This document shows, one piece after another, positions 14,470-62,287 of a DNA stretch of 64,000 bases. Source of the DNA: an uncultured Poribacteria bacterium (lineage in GTDB: Bacteria; Poribacteria; WGA-4E; WGA-3G); the NCBI GenBank assembly GCA_958296135.2, contig CATQHZ020000001.1:2976001-3040000 (forward strand), given 5' to 3'. The translations under genes and the position numbers were made by a program. How positions within the stretch are numbered: the stretch's first letter is position 1; every line of letters starts with the position of its first letter. The notes under the pieces were generated by a model. The model was given only the letters and a program-made list of their open reading frames with translations. It searched no databases and was not told the DNA's origin.

Positions 14470-15231
14470 GTGAACAGAGTTTTTATTTCTTATGTTCGTC
14501 AAAATAGGGAAAAAGTAGACCGGCTGTGCCAAGAACTTGGAGAATACGACATTCAAGTTTGGCTGGACCGGAATGAAATTAGGCCGGGTGCCCGATGGAA
14601 GGTGGAAATTCGGCGGGCTATTCGCGACGGGGCTTTCTTTATCGCGTGTTTCTCGAGGGAATATGAGATTCGCGCTAGGACGTACATGAACGAGGAACTC
14701 AGGGTTGCAATTGGGGAACTTCGTCAGTTTAACTCGGAACGAATATGGTTTATACCGGTTAAATTGAACGAATGCGAAATTCCTGATCTTGAGATTGGTC
14801 CAAACGAAACGCTCCGAGACGACATCCAGTCTGTCTCACTCTATGAAGACTGGGCCGATGGTATTCGACGCATCCTTGAGGTCATTCCGCCTGGATTATC
14901 CGATCCTGTTATAGGTGAAGAAATAAGACGTGATGATTTTGTTGCCTATAACAATCGCGGCTTGAATTACCTCAATAGAGGAGAGTATGACAGGGCCGTT
15001 GAACTTTTAAGCACGGCCATACAACTCAATCCCGATTATGTTCTAGCTCATAACAACCTCGGTCACGTTTATCTACGGATAGGAGAGTATGACAGGGCCA
15101 TTGCAAGCTATAGGAGGGCACTAGAGTTGAGGCCTGGTGATGCCAAAACTTCTCTCTACCTCAGGAACGTTTCCCACTTGAAGGAGGCAGGCCTTTATCC
15201 AGAGGATGTAGGTAATCCAAGGAACATATAG
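14470..15231 (+). CDS. TIR domain + TPR repeat protein
   Basis: VFISYVRQN, VWLDRNEIRPGARW, YMNEEL (putative catalytic Glu), FIPVKL; C-terminal TPRs (AYNNRG, AHNNLG); SD GGAGGTG. Confidence 0.85.
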   Translation: MNRVFISYVRQNREKVDRLCQELGEYDIQVWLDRNEIRPGARWKVEIRRAIRDGAFFIACFSREYEIRARTYMNEELRVAIGELRQFNSERIWFIPVKLNECEIPDLEIGPNETLRDDIQSVSLYEDWADGIRRILEVIPPGLSDPVIGEEIRRDDFVAYNNRGLNYLNRGEYDRAVELLSTAIQLNPDYVLAHNNLGHVYLRIGEYDRAIASYRRALELRPGDAKTSLYLRNVSHLKEAGLYPEDVGNPRNI

Positions 15232-54784: not shown

Positions 54785-55894
54785 GTGGGCGCGGTGCAGA
54801 ATATCCCGATAGAAAATCAGCGGGAACGCGAGTTGGTGGCGGCGTTAGAGCTGCTATCGCCGGGGACTTCGCTGAGGGAAGGCATTGACTATATTATCCA
54901 AGGCAAAACGGGGGCCTTGATTGTCGTCGGGGATACGCCAGAGATTCTCAGTCTGACAGAGGGCGGCTTCCGCATCAACTCACGGTATACGCCGATGCGG
55001 CTGTATGAATTGGCGAAAATGGACGGTGCCATCATTCTGTCTGAGAATATGAAACGGATTGTCCGCGCGAATGTGACGCTGCGGTTAAACCCCTCTATTG
55101 ACTCTAGGGAAACGGGGCTTCGGCATCGCGCTGCGGATAAGTTTGCGCAGCAGACTGGGCACATCGTGCTTGCCGTGTCCCGGAGCAGGAACACGTTGTC
55201 CTTATATCTCCGGAACCAGCGTTACATTTTCCGCGAGCGTCCGATTCTGATTTCGGGCGCGAATCAGACGATGCTCGCGCTCACGCAGTACATCAAGACG
55301 ATGCAGAACGCGATAGCGATACTGAATTGGGTGGAATTGAGCGGGAACGCCACATTGGCGGATGTCATCACAACCATCCAGTTATGCGAGCGCGTGCGCC
55401 GCACTGAATATGAGTTAACCCGATACCGGATTGAATTAGGCACGCACGCGCAGTCGCTCCAACTCATGCCATCGGAGTTGATGGCCGAGATTGAGCGCGG
55501 GCTTCTTGTGATTAAAGACTACTATCACGAGAGCCTACCGGATGCGGCCCAGGCTTTTGAAAAGATTCTGCGGCTGGATGCGAACAGTCTCGCGAGCCGG
55601 AGCACTGTCAGCACTGCCTTGGGCTATCCGCCTGATGCGAGCAATCCGTTAGAGGTGTTGGAGCCGCGCGGGTACCGGATGCTGAGTCAGATTCCGCATA
55701 TCCCGCTCAGCGTCATTGAAAACATCGTTCAGCAGTTCAAAAGGTTGGAAGCTATCTCCGCTGCGTCTGTCGCTGAGTTAGAGGCAGTGGCGGATGTCGG
55801 GAAGGCGAGAGCCACCGCGATTAAGGAGGCACTTGTCAAAATGAAAACGGCGGCTGTCCAACCGGAAATCGTAGCGTTATCTGTATTTGAATAG
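54785..55894 (+). CDS. disA: DNA integrity scanning diadenylate cyclase DisA
   Basis: LYELAKMDGA, ETGLRHR, PRGYRML, C-terminal HhH (VGKARA). Confidence 0.9.
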   Translation: MGAVQNIPIENQRERELVAALELLSPGTSLREGIDYIIQGKTGALIVVGDTPEILSLTEGGFRINSRYTPMRLYELAKMDGAIILSENMKRIVRANVTLRLNPSIDSRETGLRHRAADKFAQQTGHIVLAVSRSRNTLSLYLRNQRYIFRERPILISGANQTMLALTQYIKTMQNAIAILNWVELSGNATLADVITTIQLCERVRRTEYELTRYRIELGTHAQSLQLMPSELMAEIERGLLVIKDYYHESLPDAAQAFEKILRLDANSLASRSTVSTALGYPPDASNPLEVLEPRGYRMLSQIPHIPLSVIENIVQQFKRLEAISAASVAELEAVADVGKARATAIKEALVKMKTAAVQPEIVALSVFE

Positions 55895-55982
55895 TGATAC
55901 GTGGCTGTGCACGCCTGCACGCCGCGTTTCAGCAGATACGCAACAAACTTAGAAACCAAAAATTGTAATATATCTGATTGAC

Positions 55983-56191
55983 GTAGTCTTATCTCTCAGG
56001 TGAGAGGCTGGCGAACGGAGCGTGATGAGCGTTTCCTGCTGCACGATATCAAGAGGCTGGCATATAATGTCCTAACCCCCCGTGTGAAGCGGATTAAGAG
56101 TCGGCGGTGCGCAGGCATCGCTGACGGTGGAGGGGCCGTAAGTCCGACGCGATTCCCGAAAGGATTGTTTCGCTGCAGTATCTAGGACTAC
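55983..56191 (+). ncRNA. Unidentified multi-branched structured element (candidate ncRNA domain)
   Basis: Closing stem GTAGTCTTA/TAGGACTAC; inner stems CTCTCA/TGAGAG, CCTGCTGCAC/GTGCGCAGG, CATCG/CGGTG, CGATTCC/GGATTG; no coding signal. Confidence 0.45.
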
Positions 56192-56202
56192 AACAACAAA
56201 CG

Positions 56203-56448
56203 TCGCCGCTGGTTTGACCGAGATGTAAAACGCCTGTGGCGCTCGTGTAAGCCCTCACTGTATTCGCATTTCTCCGATTTTGACGCAGTCTTATTCTGTT
56301 TACAGAATAAGACATCTTCGGCATGCTTGGAAACCTTCGCAAGCATGCCTCCGTCAAAATCGGCAGGTGCGTTTCGGAGGCTCTGAGTGCCGAAGGAGGA
56401 ACTTAGAAGTCTCGACTTATCTCGATATGACGAGACTTCGGGGAACAG
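56203..56448 (+). ncRNA. Orphan TnpB omega-RNA/right-end homologue with no tnpB attached
   Basis: Colinear blocks shared with 61424-61605: TCGCCGCTGGTTTGAC, AAACGCCTGTGG.GCTCGTGT, TGAGTG..GAAG.AGGAACTT, GACTT.TC..GATATG, GGGAACAG. Confidence 0.75.
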
Positions 56449-56455
56449 CCACACA

Positions 56456-57832
56456 ATGAGACAATTCATCGCTTTAGCGCGCGAAGTGTTTGTCAAAGTG
56501 AACGTGACACTCTCACCGCGCACGCGCAACCGTATTGAAACGTCCGCCTATAGGGTACCGCCGGTCGCGTTATTCTGCATCGCGCTCTGCATTGCGGGAT
56601 GCGGCGGACAACTTGGAACCATTAAACCACCAGAAGTTGAAACCGCGCTCACGCAGGCGGAGTCCGCTATCGAAAAGGCACGTGAAGTGGACGCGCCGTC
56701 GCTTGCCGCTGACGCGTTTAACTCGGCGGAGGCGAACCTCGCCGCCGCGAAGACTGCCCTCAAGGAAAAGCGAGGGAGCGAGGCACTTCGCCTCGCGTAT
56801 CAAGCCACTGCTGATGCCAAGGTCGCGTACAAGGTGGCCGTTGACACCGCTAAAAACGCGGCGCTGAACGCAACCATCCTTGAGAAGGAAGCGAGTGCTA
56901 AAAAACTCCGCAAAACCCTCACCACGAAAGAGGCACAGTTGGCGAAGGCACAAGAGCGGGTGCAGGAACTCAGCCGTGACGAAGAACAACTGAAACGCAG
57001 GATGAGCCGGCTGGAAAAAGAGAAACGCGAATTGAGAAATAAGCGGGAAACCTACGGGAAACAGGTTTCCGAGCTGAGGGAAACTTTGGAATCGATTCAA
57101 GCGCGCTCGAAGCGTGCAGAAACCGAAATCCGTAGCTACGGCAAGGAGATAGCCGAGTTGCGCCGCAAGTTGGAAGTCGCCGATAAAATGATTCGGGAAG
57201 AGGGGCACCAGAAACGTGCAGCCATCGCCGCGGCGGAATCTCTCCGGAAGCAGCTGCGCGAGCAGGCGGAAATCTATACGGATAAACTCGCGCGGGCGAA
57301 TCAGCGCAGTTCGGCGGCAAAGCATGAGGACTACCTCAAGGAGAAGGCGGCGGAAGCGCGAGCGTTCGTCCAGAGCCAACGGCAGCATGAACCCGTTAAG
57401 ACAGGGCGCACGTCGCTTTCCACAGAGCAGATTGCTGCAGGCAAGGTTGCTCTCAGTAGGTGGAACACCGCGTGGGATAGCAAAAACCTATCCGCGCATC
57501 TCGCTTTTTACGCACCGAATGTCATTGCCGATAAAGTTGTCATTCGTGAGAGCAAGGAGCATCGCACCAAAATCGACCGGGGACAACTTGAAGCCGCCCT
57601 TCGTCCGATGAACGCGCATCCCTGGCGCAAAATCAAGGGAAGCACCGAGGTTGAGCGTGAAAGCGTCATCGGTATTTACCGATTGAGCCGCCTCGTCGCC
57701 CCGGCGGAGAATGAAGACGCGACGGCCCTCTACAATATCTGGATTCGCGAAGTCTGGATGCACCAAGTTGGTGCAGCGTGGAAAATCCATCACGAAATCT
57801 GGCAGATTTACGAGAACGTGCCAAACTTTTAA
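56456..57832 (+). CDS. DUF4398-like lipoprotein with coiled coil and C-terminal NTF2-like domain
   Basis: Lipobox IAGC; AESAIEKARE...A; coiled coil; WNTAWDSKNLSAHLAFYA...WKIHHE. Confidence 0.65.
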   Translation: MRQFIALAREVFVKVNVTLSPRTRNRIETSAYRVPPVALFCIALCIAGCGGQLGTIKPPEVETALTQAESAIEKAREVDAPSLAADAFNSAEANLAAAKTALKEKRGSEALRLAYQATADAKVAYKVAVDTAKNAALNATILEKEASAKKLRKTLTTKEAQLAKAQERVQELSRDEEQLKRRMSRLEKEKRELRNKRETYGKQVSELRETLESIQARSKRAETEIRSYGKEIAELRRKLEVADKMIREEGHQKRAAIAAAESLRKQLREQAEIYTDKLARANQRSSAAKHEDYLKEKAAEARAFVQSQRQHEPVKTGRTSLSTEQIAAGKVALSRWNTAWDSKNLSAHLAFYAPNVIADKVVIRESKEHRTKIDRGQLEAALRPMNAHPWRKIKGSTEVERESVIGIYRLSRLVAPAENEDATALYNIWIREVWMHQVGAAWKIHHEIWQIYENVPNF

Positions 57833-58075
57833 TCTGTTTGAACGTTCCACGAACCGTAGGCAAGAGACATTTAGTCCCATTTTTGTCGTTTGCGCTCGCC
57901 CCGCGCCGCAGGAGACTCAAACAGGGATGGCTCAAGGGCGAGGCCCGTGGTGGGCTCTTCACCGTCGATAACTGAATGCCTCTGAAACCGTAGGGCGAGG
58001 GAAAACCCGGCGAGCACGAATCGCCGAGGGCCCCCCTCGCCATGCCACGACTTTCGCAGAATAGGAGATTAAGTT

Positions 58076-60003: not shown

Positions 60004-60097
60004 GGAGGACGTTCCTAGCTTCCGAAAATCGAGACACATCGTGATAAAAGCGGATTTATCGTGATAAACGCCAACATAAGTGCTATACGAAGTGTTA

Positions 60098-60342
60098 CCG
60101 TGTTGGGCTCGGTCGAGCGTGCAGTGTTATTCGGGAGACCGAATAACACCTCTTCGGCTCAGCAGATCGTGCAGTGTTTTTTGTAATAACAAAAAACACA
60201 TCTTCGGAAACCGGTTTGGAAACCTTTGCAAACCTGCCTACACGAGCTGCAGCAGCGTGTATTCACGCTCGCCTACACGCCCGCCCGCCAATGATATCAC
60301 CGCCAGCGCATTGCCCACCCTAGTGATATAGGCGAAACACGG
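60098..60342 (+). ncRNA. Structured leader of tnpB with two nested three-way-junction motifs
   Basis: CCGTGTT/AACACGG, CGAGCGTG/CACGCTCG, GTGTTATTCGG/CCGAATAACAC, GTGTTTTTTGT/ACAAAAAACAC, ATATCAC/GTGATAT. Confidence 0.5.
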
Positions 60343-60358
60343 CAGACGGGAACACCTC

Positions 60359-61438
60359 ATGAAAACGCACAATATTGCACTGCGCCCGACACCGGCACAG
60401 GTTCAACAATTTCATCAGCACGCGGGATTCCGCCGATTTGTCTATAACTACGCTTTGTCCGATTTCAAAGCAGGCTTAGCTGAAGGCGAATGGCGGAACG
60501 GCCGCACATTGCGCACTCGGTTTAATGCCGTGAAGGACACGCAGTTTGACTGGCAGAAACGGCTCATCGCCCGCGTGGCATCACATGCGTTTGATGATTT
60601 TAACACGGCGTGTCAACGATGGAAGAACAAGCTTGCCAAGTTTCCGAAGTATAAGCGGAAGTCGGGTAAACAATCGTTTCGCGTTGACAATAAACGCAAT
60701 GCGATAAAATGTGAAGGTAAACGGCTTTACCTGCCGAAGATAGGCTGGGTGCGGACGTTTGAAGCGTTGCGGTTCAAAGGCGACGTGATGCGCGTAGTGA
60801 TTAAGAAGCGAGGCCCTCGTTGGTTTGCATCGGTGCTCGTCGAAACCCTGTCAATAGCCAAGCCCGATTTACGTGGTTTGCCTACCGTGGGCATCGATGT
60901 GGGTATCAACACCCTCGCTACTTGCTCTGATGGACGCGCCTTTGAAAACCCGCGCGCCTTGGCTCGTTATCAACGTCAACTCCGCCGTGCGCAACGCGCA
61001 CTGAGTCGTTCAGTCTATCGCAGTCAGAATTGGTGGAAAAAGAAGGAACGTGTTGTCCGTATCCACTATCGTATCGCTTGCATCCGCGAAGACGCGCATC
61101 ACAAAGCCAGCACGGCGATTGTGAAAGGTGTCTCAGCAATCGGGATAGAATCTCTGAACGTGAAAGGCATGATGAAAAACCGCCGGATTGCGAAGGCATT
61201 ATCAGACGCAGCACTCGGGGGATTTCTCTCCAAGTTGAAGACGAAGGCGGCGGCACTCGGCGTGCGGATTGAGGAAGCCTCTCAGTGGTTCGCTTCCTCG
61301 AAGACGTGCAGTGCATGCGGACATAAAAAGGATACCCTCACGTTATCGGAACGTGACTATCACTGCAGCGGGTGTGGATTGCGGATAGACCGAGATTTGA
61401 ACGCTGCAAGGAATTTGGAACCCTCGCCGCTGGTTTGA
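60359..61438 (+). CDS. tnpB: RNA-guided endonuclease TnpB
   Basis: N-terminal HTH (LRPT...RFVYNYAL), RuvC GIDVG / IESL / DRDLNAARNL, Zn finger CSAC..CSGC; all three acidic residues intact. Confidence 0.93.
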   Translation: MKTHNIALRPTPAQVQQFHQHAGFRRFVYNYALSDFKAGLAEGEWRNGRTLRTRFNAVKDTQFDWQKRLIARVASHAFDDFNTACQRWKNKLAKFPKYKRKSGKQSFRVDNKRNAIKCEGKRLYLPKIGWVRTFEALRFKGDVMRVVIKKRGPRWFASVLVETLSIAKPDLRGLPTVGIDVGINTLATCSDGRAFENPRALARYQRQLRRAQRALSRSVYRSQNWWKKKERVVRIHYRIACIREDAHHKASTAIVKGVSAIGIESLNVKGMMKNRRIAKALSDAALGGFLSKLKTKAAALGVRIEEASQWFASSKTCSACGHKKDTLTLSERDYHCSGCGLRIDRDLNAARNLEPSPLV

Positions 61439-61605
61439 CGGAGAGGAGTGGGTATTACCTCTCGTATCCGAGAGGTAATACCTTAAACGCCTGTGGAGCT
61501 CGTGTCAGACTTCGGTTGCGAAGCAGTGAGTGTTGAAGCAGGAACTTTAGAAATCGGACAGACTCATACGGACTTGTCCAGATATGTCTCGATTTCAGGG
61601 AACAG
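61424..61605 (+). ncRNA. omega-RNA (reRNA) scaffold of tnpB; predicted guide follows (TTCTATGCAAAACGTG)
   Basis: Overlaps the tnpB 3' end; hairpins, GAAGCAGGAA motif; ends at the element right end. Confidence 0.7.
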
Positions 61606-61609
61606 TTCT

Positions 61610-62287
61610 ATGCAAAACGTGCCCAGGAACAGTTCACACTTAAAAGTCTCTAACCTGCATAAGAGTTTCGGCGCGGTCCAAGTTCTGCGCGACATCTCGT
61701 TTTCGTTTGGCTCGGGCGCGTCTGTGGCCATTACCGGTCCCTCTGGTTCAGGCAAAAGCACGTTGCTCCATCTCATTGGCACACTGGCGGAACCCTCCGG
61801 TGGGCGGATTGAGATTAACAACGTCAACCCGTTTGACTTATCGGAGCGCGAGCTCGCGGCATATCGGAACTCGGTGCTTGGGTTTGTGTTTCAGGAGCAT
61901 CATCTGCTGCCGCAGTATTCGGTGCTTGAAAATGTGCTGGTTCCAACGCTCGCGTTTAAGGGGAAATCCGATGCCACACAGCGGGCGCATGAGCTGCTCA
62001 AGCGGGTGGGATTAACACATCGGCTGACGCATCGGCCCGGGGAGCTCTCCGGCGGCGAACGTCAACGCGTTGCCATCGCGCGCGCCCTTATCAACCGACC
62101 GGGGATTCTGCTCTGCGATGAACCAACCGGCAATTTGGATAACGCTACCGCTGAGACTATCGTCAATTTGCTATTTGAGATGCATCGCGTGGAGCAGCAC
62201 ATCTTAATCGTCGTCACGCACAATCTTGAATTCGCGTCCCGTTTTCAGCACCGCCTCAACCTCGCCGAGGGCACCTTGGACACCTAG
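61610..62287 (+). CDS. ABC transporter ATP-binding protein (LolD/MacB-like)
   Basis: GPSGSGKST, GFVFQ, LSGGERQRVAIARAL, DEPTGNLD, VTH. Confidence 0.9.
   Translation: MQNVPRNSSHLKVSNLHKSFGAVQVLRDISFSFGSGASVAITGPSGSGKSTLLHLIGTLAEPSGGRIEINNVNPFDLSERELAAYRNSVLGFVFQEHHLLPQYSVLENVLVPTLAFKGKSDATQRAHELLKRVGLTHRLTHRPGELSGGERQRVAIARALINRPGILLCDEPTGNLDNATAETIVNLLFEMHRVEQHILIVVTHNLEFASRFQHRLNLAEGTLDT

What the first reader, a model, noticed from the sequence alone, without database searches (positions are those of the whole stretch)
55983..56470. Stand-alone TnpB-type guide RNA locus: orphan omega-RNA joined to an unknown structured domain
Seen: 56203-56448 matches the omega-RNA/right end of the tnpB element (61424-61605) block by block and in order. 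The match starts with an identical 16-mer overlapping the last tnpB codons and ends at the same GGGAACAG. There is no tnpB ORF here. Where tnpB would be, a ~210-nt highly paired domain (55983-56191) sits after an AT-rich, promoter-like stretch (about 55945-55980). Divergent parts keep their pairing (AGAAGTCTCG/CGAGACTTC vs GAAATCGGACA/TGTCTCGATTTC). Known: TnpB uses an omega-RNA from the element right end, with the 3' flank as guide. Inference: this is either a non-autonomous element that borrows TnpB in trans or a domesticated composite ncRNA that reprograms TnpB with a second guide (CCACACAATGAGACAA..., spanning the next start codon).
Basis: partly seen in the sequence, partly recalled or inferred. 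Interest (0 to 1): 0.82.

Follow-up and report, generated by a model that had tools for sequence, protein, structure and literature searches.

The report
Truncated gene-less transposon carrying guide RNA
The "orphan guide RNA" is an old copy, missing its left end, of a small protein-less jumping element present about nine times in this genome; it carries a TnpB guide-RNA scaffold plus a conserved folded RNA module of unknown role, a known kind of selfish DNA with one unusual extra part.

Summary
The sequence observation holds. Window 56201-56448 is collinear with the right end/omega-RNA of the window's tnpB element, has no tnpB, and follows a 209-nt domain (55983-56191).

It is not a stand-alone locus. 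It is one of 9 copies in this genome of a gene-less mini-element built as left end, 210-nt domain ("dom5"), omega-RNA scaffold, right end. Another genus of the same family holds at least 23 copies.

The ends and targets look IS607-like. The element sits after GGAG or GGG. The right end repeats the same dinucleotide, and there is no target duplication. Most copies land between a Shine-Dalgarno sequence and a start codon.

A same-genus genome has the empty site AAAGGAG|CCACAAAATG. The "second guide" is therefore just the insertion flank. The window copy has lost about 16 nt of flank and about 62 nt of its left end, and it is the most diverged copy, so it is probably immobile.

dom5 is conserved with compensatory changes, reads best on the + strand, matches no Rfam family, and occurs only in tnpB-less elements. 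Its function is unknown; I guess it supports omega-RNA production from read-through transcripts. No RNA data exist.

Verdict: new variant of a known kind, of moderate interest.

The parts
55950..55964 (+). Host flank (TAGAAACCAAAAATT). It is homologous to the disA-lipoprotein spacer of same-genus genomes and ends at the deletion junction.
   Evidence: G002 reads TAGAAACCAAAACTT followed by AACCGAAAAAAAGGAG|CCACAAAATG. In the window those last 16 nt of flank, which include the Shine-Dalgarno sequence, are missing.
55965..55982 (+). The last 18 nt that remain of the mini-element's left end (GTAATATATCTGATTGAC). About 62 nt of left end seen in 6 sister copies are absent.
   Evidence: alignment of the 7 main-type copies; the left-end start GAGAGTGCTAG... 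is found at 6 sites, none of them here.
55983..56191 (+). dom5, a conserved multi-helix structured domain of 209 nt. It has a closing helix, two 5' hairpins, a central junction, and a 3' hairpin whose loop takes insertions in other copies.
   Evidence: 13 helices; 97% of cells paired; 9 pairs changed on both sides. (covariance model finds 9 copies in G000 and 23 in G004). (no Rfam match). (+ strand -74.9, - strand -58.7 kcal/mol).
56192..56200 (+). A-rich linker between dom5 and the omega-RNA scaffold.
   Evidence: alignments. The linker is present, with variable length, in all types.
56201..56448 (+). TnpB omega-RNA scaffold and right end of the mini-element. It comprises SL1 (56201-56225), the conserved core AAAACGCCTGTGG, SL2 (interrupted by a nested insertion), the GAAG(C>G)AGGAA motif, SL3 (56406-56439) and the terminus GGGGAACAG.
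   Evidence: collinear with the right ends of 8 family-A tnpB copies. SL1 changes in a compensatory way: CGTC/GACG, CCTC/GAGG, CGCG/CGCG; the right boundary coincides with the empty site.
56273..56365 (+). Nested 93-nt hairpin-module insertion with 12-bp inverted ends (CCGATTTTGACG / CGTCAAAATCGG) in the apical part of SL2. It is absent from copy c2122.
   Evidence: alignment. (14 BLAST hits in the genome, among them the left ends of family-B tnpB elements).
56447..56448 (+). Terminal AG, the presumed crossover dinucleotide shared with the left flank (..GGAG|).
   Evidence: all 15 right ends of type A/mini end in AG, and all 14 intact left flanks end in AG. Type B/D right ends end in GG (12 of 12), and their left flanks end in GG in 18 of 19 sites.
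56449..56464 (+). Guide-position flank CCACACAATGAGACAA. It covers the start codon (56456-56458) of a DUF4398 lipoprotein-like gene.
   Evidence: empty site in G002 and G001: GGAG|CCACAAAATGAGACAA. (Pfam DUF4398). (unique in the genome).
60008..61605 (+). Reference family-A tnpB element of the window. Left end 60008-60358, tnpB 60359-61438, omega-RNA/right end 61421-61605. It is inserted after GGAG (60004-60007), 4 nt before the ATG of an ABC ATPase gene.
   Evidence: OrfB_IS605, Cas12f1-like_TNB and HTH_OrfB_IS605 domains.. (sub-threshold RAGATH-18 match at 61490-61544: 24.3 bits, E 0.11).

Best explanation
Window 55965-56448 is a copy, cut short at the left end, of a gene-less non-autonomous mini-transposon. 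It derives from the IS607/IS1341-type tnpB elements that crowd this genome.

An intact copy has four parts:
- about 80 nt of left end with short repeated motifs, presumably recombinase binding sites;
- the 210-nt structured domain dom5;
- a complete TnpB omega-RNA scaffold;
- the right-end terminus.

The element integrates directly after a G-rich motif (AAGGAG for this type), without target duplication, at a dinucleotide that the right end repeats. This fits a serine recombinase (TnpA_S) acting in trans. Because AAGGAG is the Shine-Dalgarno sequence, copies sit in sense orientation between the ribosome-binding site and the start codon.

Inferred steps:
- The element has no promoter of its own and is read from the host gene's promoter.
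- The transcript yields an omega-RNA whose 3' guide is the first about 16 nt of host sequence.
- Family-A TnpB made elsewhere would load this RNA. It would cut the vacant site (GGAG + guide) after excision, so that repair restores the element.

dom5 is a selected RNA module on the same strand. My best guess (about 35%, pure inference) is a cis-acting 5' domain that stabilises or helps mature the omega-RNA from read-through transcripts, taking the place of the tnpB mRNA body.

The window copy lost its left junction by a deletion of about 78 nt at a short AATT/ACTT microhomology. It can no longer transpose, and it carries 23 private substitutions.
For: Copy number:
- 7 main-type and 2 D-type copies are in G000.
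- 23 full-length dom5 matches are in G004.
- Contig depth is about 4-5 times the unique depth over 56004-56505.

Relation to the tnpB elements:
- The right end and omega-RNA are collinear with 8 family-A tnpB elements.
- The left-end start resembles that of family A: GACGTTCCTAGC..CCGAAAATCGAG versus GAGAGTGCTAGAGCCCGAAAATCCGAG.
- D-type ends match family B.

Target and chemistry:
- Left flanks read [A/G]GAG in 8 of 8 family-A copies and AAGGAG in 6 of 6 minis.
- Left flanks end in GGG in 18 of 19 B/D-type sites.
- Right ends finish in AG or GG accordingly.
- The empty site AAAGGAG|CCACAAAATG is present in G002 and G001.
- The genome holds one resolvase-tnpB pair whose left end resembles the B/D left end.
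- The IS607-family CboIStron has a G-rich TAM, 5'-TGGG, and specific dinucleotide requirements (10.1101/2023.11.20.567912, section 5 and passages read).

Context and transcription:
- 5 of 7 main minis have an ORF of at least 60 aa starting 7-12 nt after the right end.
- No + strand terminator lies between disA and the element, and no sigma-70-like site lies in the left end.
- The 16S rRNA carries the canonical CCTCC tail.

dom5:
- It shows covariation and G-U pairs that fit only the + strand.
- It is found only in tnpB-less elements.

Literature: gene-less PATE-like elements that encode omega-RNAs used in trans are described in PMC10055086 (passages read).
Against: - No RNA data exist for this organism, so transcription, processing and TnpB loading are all untested (the laid runs look like DNA).
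- The only IS607-type tnpA_S in the genome carries an in-frame TGA at codon 31, so the source of transposase is unclear.
- The window copy has a private C>G change in the otherwise conserved GAAGCAGGAA motif, and a 93-nt insertion in SL2. Its scaffold may no longer work.
- Rfam does not recognise the orphan scaffold as any omega-RNA family. Even the tnpB copy reaches only 24.3 of 44.9 bits for RAGATH-18.
- The stabiliser role for dom5 has no direct support. The domain is not unusually stable, and covariation rests on only 3-4 independent lineages.
- Family-A tnpB elements insert at the same Shine-Dalgarno sites without dom5. dom5 is therefore not needed to cope with that location.
Confidence: 0.8

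Rival explanations
1. Mini-IStron-like element. dom5 would be a ribozyme of an undescribed class that splices or cleaves the element out of the host 5' UTR. That would bring the Shine-Dalgarno sequence and the start codon back together, as group I introns do in IStrons.
For: - The layout left end / structured RNA / omega-RNA / right end matches IStrons and their mini-IS constructs (10.1101/2023.11.20.567912, passages read).
- Insertion between the ribosome-binding site and the start codon should hurt the host gene in an organism with a canonical anti-SD. That creates a selective need for removal.
- dom5 has many invariant unpaired bases and variable peripheral loops.
- The element ends in G.
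Against: - No match to the group I intron model or to any ribozyme family at E up to 10 or 1, whereas published IStron introns match the Rfam model (section 5 of the paper).
- The 5' flank ends in G, not U, in 14 of 14 intact type A/mini copies.
- I could find no guide-like pairing with the flank that is shared by main, D and G004 types, whose ends differ while dom5 stays the same (by eye).
- Family-A tnpB elements sit at the same kind of site without dom5.
- No spliced form could be looked for, because no RNA run is listed.
Confidence: 0.08
2. dom5 has no function of its own. It would be a hitch-hiking piece of the founder mini-element, kept because all copies descend from one successful deletion derivative. 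The window locus would then be a decaying remnant.
For: - Narrow distribution: found in 2 of 61 family genomes, plus one weak partial match in a third genome. Nothing was found in metagenome or viral contigs with a 22-base pattern.
- Folding energy is not above chance.
- Three G004 copies lack the central arms.
- The window copy is left-end-less and the most diverged.
Against: - The same dom5 sits in elements with two different sets of ends (A-like and B-like) and in two genera. It is better conserved than those ends, with many invariant columns.
- 9 pairs keep pairing through changes on both sides, against 0-3 with slid partners.
- Insertions of 36-260 nt fall in loops and not in helices.
- All 9 tnpB-less A/B-type elements of G000 carry it (one search compared).
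Confidence: 0.2
3. Domesticated composite ncRNA. The host would keep this single locus to direct TnpB to a chosen target.
For: The scaffold is largely intact, although the copy can no longer move.
Against: - The guide is the local insertion flank and has no second match in the genome.
- With the GGAG lost, the locus no longer offers a TAM next to the target.
- The locus is absent from both same-genus genomes.
- It is one diverged member of a repeat family.
Confidence: 0.03

Closest known systems
Gene-less PATE-like mini-IS elements that encode omega-RNAs (Geobacillus stearothermophilus; Meers et al. 2023, PMC10055086, passages read). Also stand-alone mobilised omega-RNAs of OMEGA systems (Altae-Tran et al. 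2021; recalled, not read here).
   Same: - No protein gene.
- Ends similar to those of tnpB-bearing IS elements of the same genome.
- Multi-copy.
- The omega-RNA must be used by a TnpB encoded elsewhere.
   Different: - The ends and targets here look IS607-like (G-rich motif, shared dinucleotide), not like the Y1/IS605 palindromic ends.
- An extra conserved 210-nt structured domain lies between the left end and the omega-RNA.
IS607-family tnpB elements and the C. botulinum IStron with its mini-IS (Zedaveinyte et al., 10.1101/2023.11.20.567912; section 5 and passages read, supplementary figures not seen).
   Same: - G-rich TAM (TGGG there; GGAG or GGG here).
- No target duplication.
- Omega-RNA with consecutive stem-loops at the right end.
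- Layout: structured RNA at the left, guide RNA at the right.
   Different: - The left-hand RNA is not a group I intron by Rfam.
- The 5' flank ends in G.
- Insertion is in 5' UTRs at the ribosome-binding site, not inside coding sequence.
- No splicing evidence is available.
RAGATH-18 RNA motif (Rfam RF03064). Its link to TnpB right ends is taken from an earlier scan note and from recall.
   Same: The core of the window's family-A omega-RNA gives the best Rfam match to it.
   Different: - The score is far below the curated cut-off (24.3 against 44.9 bits).
- No match in the orphan copy or in the insertion-free sister copy.

Membership tests
TnpB omega-RNA (reRNA) | Collinear homology with the 3' end or right end of a tnpB-encoding element | tested here: met
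   aligned block by block with 8 family-A right ends. The 16-mer and the terminus are identical.
TnpB omega-RNA (reRNA) | Conserved stem-loops kept by compensatory change | tested here: inconclusive
   SL1 and SL3 change on both strands between families. No shuffle control was run on this alignment, and RNAalifold recovered only SL1 and SL2.
TnpB omega-RNA (reRNA) | The scaffold ends at the transposon boundary, and the next about 16 nt (the guide) are host flank next to a TAM in the empty site | tested here: met
   empty site GGAG|CCACAAAATGAGACAA in G002 and G001.
TnpB omega-RNA (reRNA) | Expressed and bound by TnpB; directs DNA cleavage | not testable with these tools
   No RNA run is listed.
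IS607-family (serine recombinase) transposon, non-autonomous derivative | No target-site duplication; the same dinucleotide at the left flank and at the right-end terminus; G-rich TAM | tested here: met
   AG/AG in 14 of 14 intact type A/mini copies; GG/GG for type B/D; empty site.
IS607-family (serine recombinase) transposon, non-autonomous derivative | A TnpA_S recombinase available in the genome | tested here: inconclusive
   there is one resolvase-tnpB pair, but its gene has an in-frame TGA at codon 31. The other two resolvase hits are not next to any tnpB hit.
IS607-family (serine recombinase) transposon, non-autonomous derivative | Both transposon ends present | tested here: not met
   The window copy lacks about 62 nt of left end and the flank. 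The 6 sister copies have both ends.
IStron / group I intron | Match to the group I intron covariance model | tested here: not met
   no match at E up to 10 (window) or up to 1 (three other copies).
IStron / group I intron | U before the 5' splice site and G at the 3' end of the element | tested here: not met
   the flank ends in G in all intact copies. The terminal G is present.
IStron / group I intron | Spliced exon-exon RNA | not testable with these tools
   No RNA holder is listed. The laid contigs look like DNA.
PATE (IS200/IS605, Y1 transposase) | Subterminal palindromes recognised by a Y1 TnpA with ends like those of its own element | tested here: inconclusive
   two Y1 hits in the genome, neither examined for similar ends. 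The end features fit IS607 better.

The most novel reading that the evidence does not exclude
dom5 would be a new class of functional RNA that gene-less IS607-type elements pair with a TnpB guide scaffold. It could be a ribozyme or processing module that frees the guide RNA or the host mRNA from the shared transcript. Or it could be a module that lets the parasite out-compete the tnpB elements for their own nuclease. Together with site choice at ribosome-binding sites, this would be an intron-free counterpart of the IStron compromise between guide-RNA production and host-gene expression.
Probability: 0.15. Interest if true: 0.75.

Novelty: new variant of a known kind. Interest (0 to 1): 0.42.

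Why it matters
Gene-less elements that keep only a guide RNA show that guide and nuclease can evolve as separable, competing parts. Three things go beyond the described cases.
1. A conserved 210-nt folded module accompanies the guide scaffold in every tnpB-less copy, across two sets of transposon ends and two genera.
2. The target motif is the Shine-Dalgarno sequence, so each copy sits between a gene's ribosome-binding site and its start codon. This raises the open question of how those genes are still translated.
3. The elements are chimeric: B-type ends combined with an A-like guide core.

If dom5 has an activity, it would be a new RNA class with a clear assay. If it has none, this is a tidy example of a known kind of selfish DNA. 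The GGAG-type TAM may also interest people who mine TnpB nucleases for genome editing.

Tried and rejected
- Known RNA class for dom5: rejected. Rfam at gathering thresholds over the whole window found 0 hits. Rfam by E-value on the locus and on three other copies gave only noise.
- Protein-coding relic: rejected. tblastn with TnpA_S and three TnpB proteins against three minis gave a best E of 0.57. Indels between copies break the 61-aa ORF, and Pfam finds nothing in it.
- dom5 as a diverged duplicate of the omega-RNA core (shared UGGAG...UAAGNCC): rejected. Local alignment scores lie within the shuffle range, with 81 to 385 of 500 shuffles at least as high.
- dom5 as the guide RNA of the genome's single IscB-like gene: the model finds no copy there.
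- An autonomous element carrying dom5: none found.
  - No tnpB within 1.5 kb in 9 G004 loci, nor in 29 of 30 loci.
  - The model finds dom5 in 2 of 61 (family), 3 of 151 (order), 2 of 151 (class) and 2 of 151 (phylum) genomes. These samples overlap heavily and were run with the stricter filters.
- Wider collections:
  - My first pattern for genome contigs had one N too many and could not match the real copies.
  - The corrected pattern matched 42 of 65 session loci. It gave 6 metagenome hits and 0 viral hits. None of the hits and 46 matches the model at E up to 1.
  - A proper scan of genome contigs therefore remains undone.
- Expression: no RNA holder is listed. The four runs laid are contigs with flat depth, as for DNA, and show no joint at the mini-element.
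- Own promoter: none by the consensus scan.
- Empty site for the window's tnpB element: the junction differs too much in G001 and G002 to be read.
- Literature: the searches 'TnpB + IS607 + Shine-Dalgarno' and 'TnpB/orphan/guide RNA/miniature inverted-repeat' listed nothing describing such a module or such targeting. Only the listings were seen.
Full report
**1. The observation**

The 16-mer TCGCCGCTGGTTTGAC lies at 56203-56218 and again at 61424-61439, where it spans the stop codon of a 359-aa TnpB. That protein has OrfB_IS605, Cas12f1-like TNB and HTH_OrfB_IS605 domains. Both stretches end in GGGAACAG, at 56441-56448 and 61598-61605.

The blocks in between are collinear, and the last hairpin differs by changes on both strands. 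No tnpB-like ORF or relic is present. The 5' domain closes exactly at 55983-55990 with 56184-56191.

Two details do not hold:
- The domain's folding energy is ordinary: z = -0.96, and 31 of 200 shuffles fold at least as well.
- No sigma-70-like site lies in the "promoter-like" stretch or in the intact left end of a sister copy.

**2. It is a repeat, not an orphan**

BLAST against the laid genome (5.19 Mb) finds six more copies at 88.5-91.6% identity to the window copy. It also finds two at about 73%.

The six sister copies share about 62 nt more at the 5' end, beginning GAGAGTGCTAGAGCCCGAAAATCCGAG directly after AAGGAG (6 of 6). All seven end in TTCGGGGAACAG. Contig depth over 56004-56505 is about 4-5 times that of the unique flanks in four runs that look like DNA.

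The genome holds about 35 tnpB loci:
- family A: 8 copies at 92-100% amino-acid identity, including the window's;
- family B: 8 copies at about 55% identity to A;
- further families at 43-48%.

The main mini type shares its left-end start and its right end with family A. The two diverged "D-type" minis share their left end (GGG|CTCGGTGCAGTGGCGA) and terminus (..AGAGCGG) with family B. Their guide-scaffold core, however, is closer to family A: 89-90% over 82-84 nt. The minis are therefore modular and partly chimeric.

**3. Boundaries, target and transposition chemistry**

In two genomes of the same genus the disA-lipoprotein spacer reads ...AAAGGAG|CCACAAAATGAGACAATTC, with nothing between. So the right boundary at 56448|56449 is exact, and the "second guide" is the insertion flank (15 of 16 identical).

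The window copy lacks the last 16 nt of the left flank, Shine-Dalgarno sequence included, together with about 62 nt of its own left end. The two are joined at a short AATT/ACTT microhomology.

Across the genome:
- left flanks end [A/G]GAG in 8 of 8 family-A elements;
- left flanks read AAGGAG in 6 of 6 minis;
- left flanks end GGG in 18 of 19 B/D-type left ends;
- right ends finish in AG (15 of 15) or GG (12 of 12) to match.

A shared dinucleotide, no duplication and a G-rich motif are what the IS607-family C. botulinum IStron shows: TAM 5'-TGGG and particular dinucleotide requirements (10.1101/2023.11.20.567912, section 5 and passages read; supplementary figures not seen).

The genome has one resolvase-tnpB pair whose left end resembles the B/D type. 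Its recombinase gene carries an in-frame TGA at codon 31.

**4. Where the copies sit**

AAGGAG is the ribosome-binding site, and the 16S rRNA ends in the canonical CCTCC.
- 5 of 7 main minis are followed within 7-12 nt by the start of an ORF of at least 60 aa. One of these genes is mtnA-like.
- An ATG lies 4-9 nt after the right end in 6 of 8 family-A elements. ORFs were not checked there, except the window's ABC ATPase.

All these elements therefore lie in sense orientation inside 5' UTRs. No terminator-like site was found on the + strand in 55700-56700, which covers the disA-element spacer. How the displaced genes are translated is unexplained.

**5. The 5' domain (dom5)**

A MAFFT alignment of 12 copies without large insertions (4 from G000 and 8 from G004, out of 32 known) gives an RNAalifold structure of 13 helices.

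| Measure | Observed | Control |
|---|---|---|
| Cells forming standard pairs | 97.0% | 35-58% with 3' partners slid by 1-3 columns |
| Pairs changed on both sides | 9 | 0-3 with slid partners; 13 of 500 shuffles reach 9 |
| Covariation score | 0.142 | at most 0.053 with slid partners |

The sequences fall into only 3-4 lineages, so this is moderate evidence. Several invariant G-U pairs, and the lower energy of the + strand (-74.9 against -58.7 kcal/mol), point to an RNA on the omega-RNA strand.

Insertions of 36 to about 260 nt, which are small hairpin modules, fall in loops. Three G004 copies lack the central arms.

A covariance model finds:
- 9 copies in G000;
- 23 full-length copies in G004;
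- one weak partial copy in G001, inside another gene-less element ending AAGGAACAG before an ATG;
- nothing else in overlapping samples of 61, 151, 151 and 151 genomes.

No copy has a tnpB within 1.5 kb, apart from an unrelated family-B gene end near one copy. Rfam has no match. My scan of all reference genomes was wasted on a mistyped pattern. The corrected pattern found nothing real in metagenome or viral contigs.

**6. What it most likely does**

Shown:
- it is a multi-copy gene-less element;
- its ends and guide scaffold match resident tnpB families;
- its insertion site is defined;
- it carries a conserved structured module.

Inferred from established TnpB biology (guide = flank after the right end; TnpB cuts the vacated site so that repair restores the element; Meers et al., PMC10055086, passages read):
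- the minis are transcribed from host promoters;
- their RNA is used in trans by family-A-like TnpB.

That paper already notes PATE-like elements that "often encode omega-RNAs" needing TnpB in trans, so the class is known.

For dom5 I favour a cis-acting role in guide-RNA stability or maturation, at about 35%. A neutral passenger gets about 20%. A ribozyme or intron-like role gets about 8-15%. The intron-like role is disfavoured by the G before the element, by the missing group I signature, and by family-A elements sitting at the same sites without dom5.

**7. The window copy**

This copy has no left end. It has 23 private substitutions in 383 shared columns, against 1-16 in the others. It also has a 93-nt nested insertion in SL2, although 5 of the 7 main copies share that insertion. 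This particular locus is best read as a stranded, ageing copy. Some of its changes keep or improve pairing: SL3 has 9 perfect pairs. One change alters the conserved GAAGCAGGAA motif.

**8. Verdict**

The "non-autonomous element" reading is right for the family, and the "domesticated second guide" reading is not supported. This is a new variant of a known kind. The open, testable item is dom5.

Notes from earlier windows of this scan describe similar gene-less IS607 minis in archaea. I used them as leads only.

Noticed in passing
window 57987-58050 (spacer between 57832 and 58076): A REP-like repeat of about 60 nt (CCGTAGGGCGAGG...CCCTCGCC). A query over the 243-nt spacer gives 244 BLAST rows in the genome. 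Contig depth here is about 18 times the unique depth.
   Followed up: partly
window 56273-56365; also 60137-60250 in the tnpB left end: Small hairpin modules with inverted ends (CCGATTTTGACG.../GCAGTGTTATTC...GAATAACAC.TCTTCGG) are nested in loops of dom5, in the omega-RNA SL2 and in tnpB left ends. G004 has its own type (GGTATTTACCC.GCAAAGC.GGG..AATACC) at equivalent places. They look like independent miniature insertions that prefer structured loops.
   Followed up: partly
window 56392-56398: The private C>G change at 56396 turns the conserved GAAGCAGGAA into GAAGGAGGAA, a perfect Shine-Dalgarno-like string, in the one copy whose host Shine-Dalgarno sequence was deleted. It lies 58 nt before the ATG, with SL3 in between. 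This may be coincidence.
   Followed up: no
window 61606-61660: Compared with same-genus genomes, the ABC ATPase gene after the tnpB element has about 7 extra N-terminal codons. They contain CCCAGGAACAG, which resembles a second right-end terminus and may be the footprint of an earlier insertion.
   Followed up: partly
G000:C1:3725813-3727830: The only resolvase + tnpB (IS607-type) pair of the genome. The recombinase ORF has an in-frame TGA at codon 31, between the HTH and the catalytic domain.
   Followed up: partly
G000:C1:3818824-3819570 (- strand): An IscB-like gene (Pfam RRXRR, 135 bits, open frame of 559 aa). Its guide RNA was not examined.
   Followed up: no
G000 contig C2 (143,886 bases): G+C is 36.8%, against 54.4% for the main contig. 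It may be a plasmid of foreign origin or contamination.
   Followed up: no
L005 (G001:C179, about 14900-15125): In G001 the disA-lipoprotein spacer holds two tandem repeat units of about 85 nt (GCGTTCCCTAACCTCACCGGTAGGCGCGG...) in place of the mini-element. The same spacer was hit independently by another repeat.
   Followed up: no
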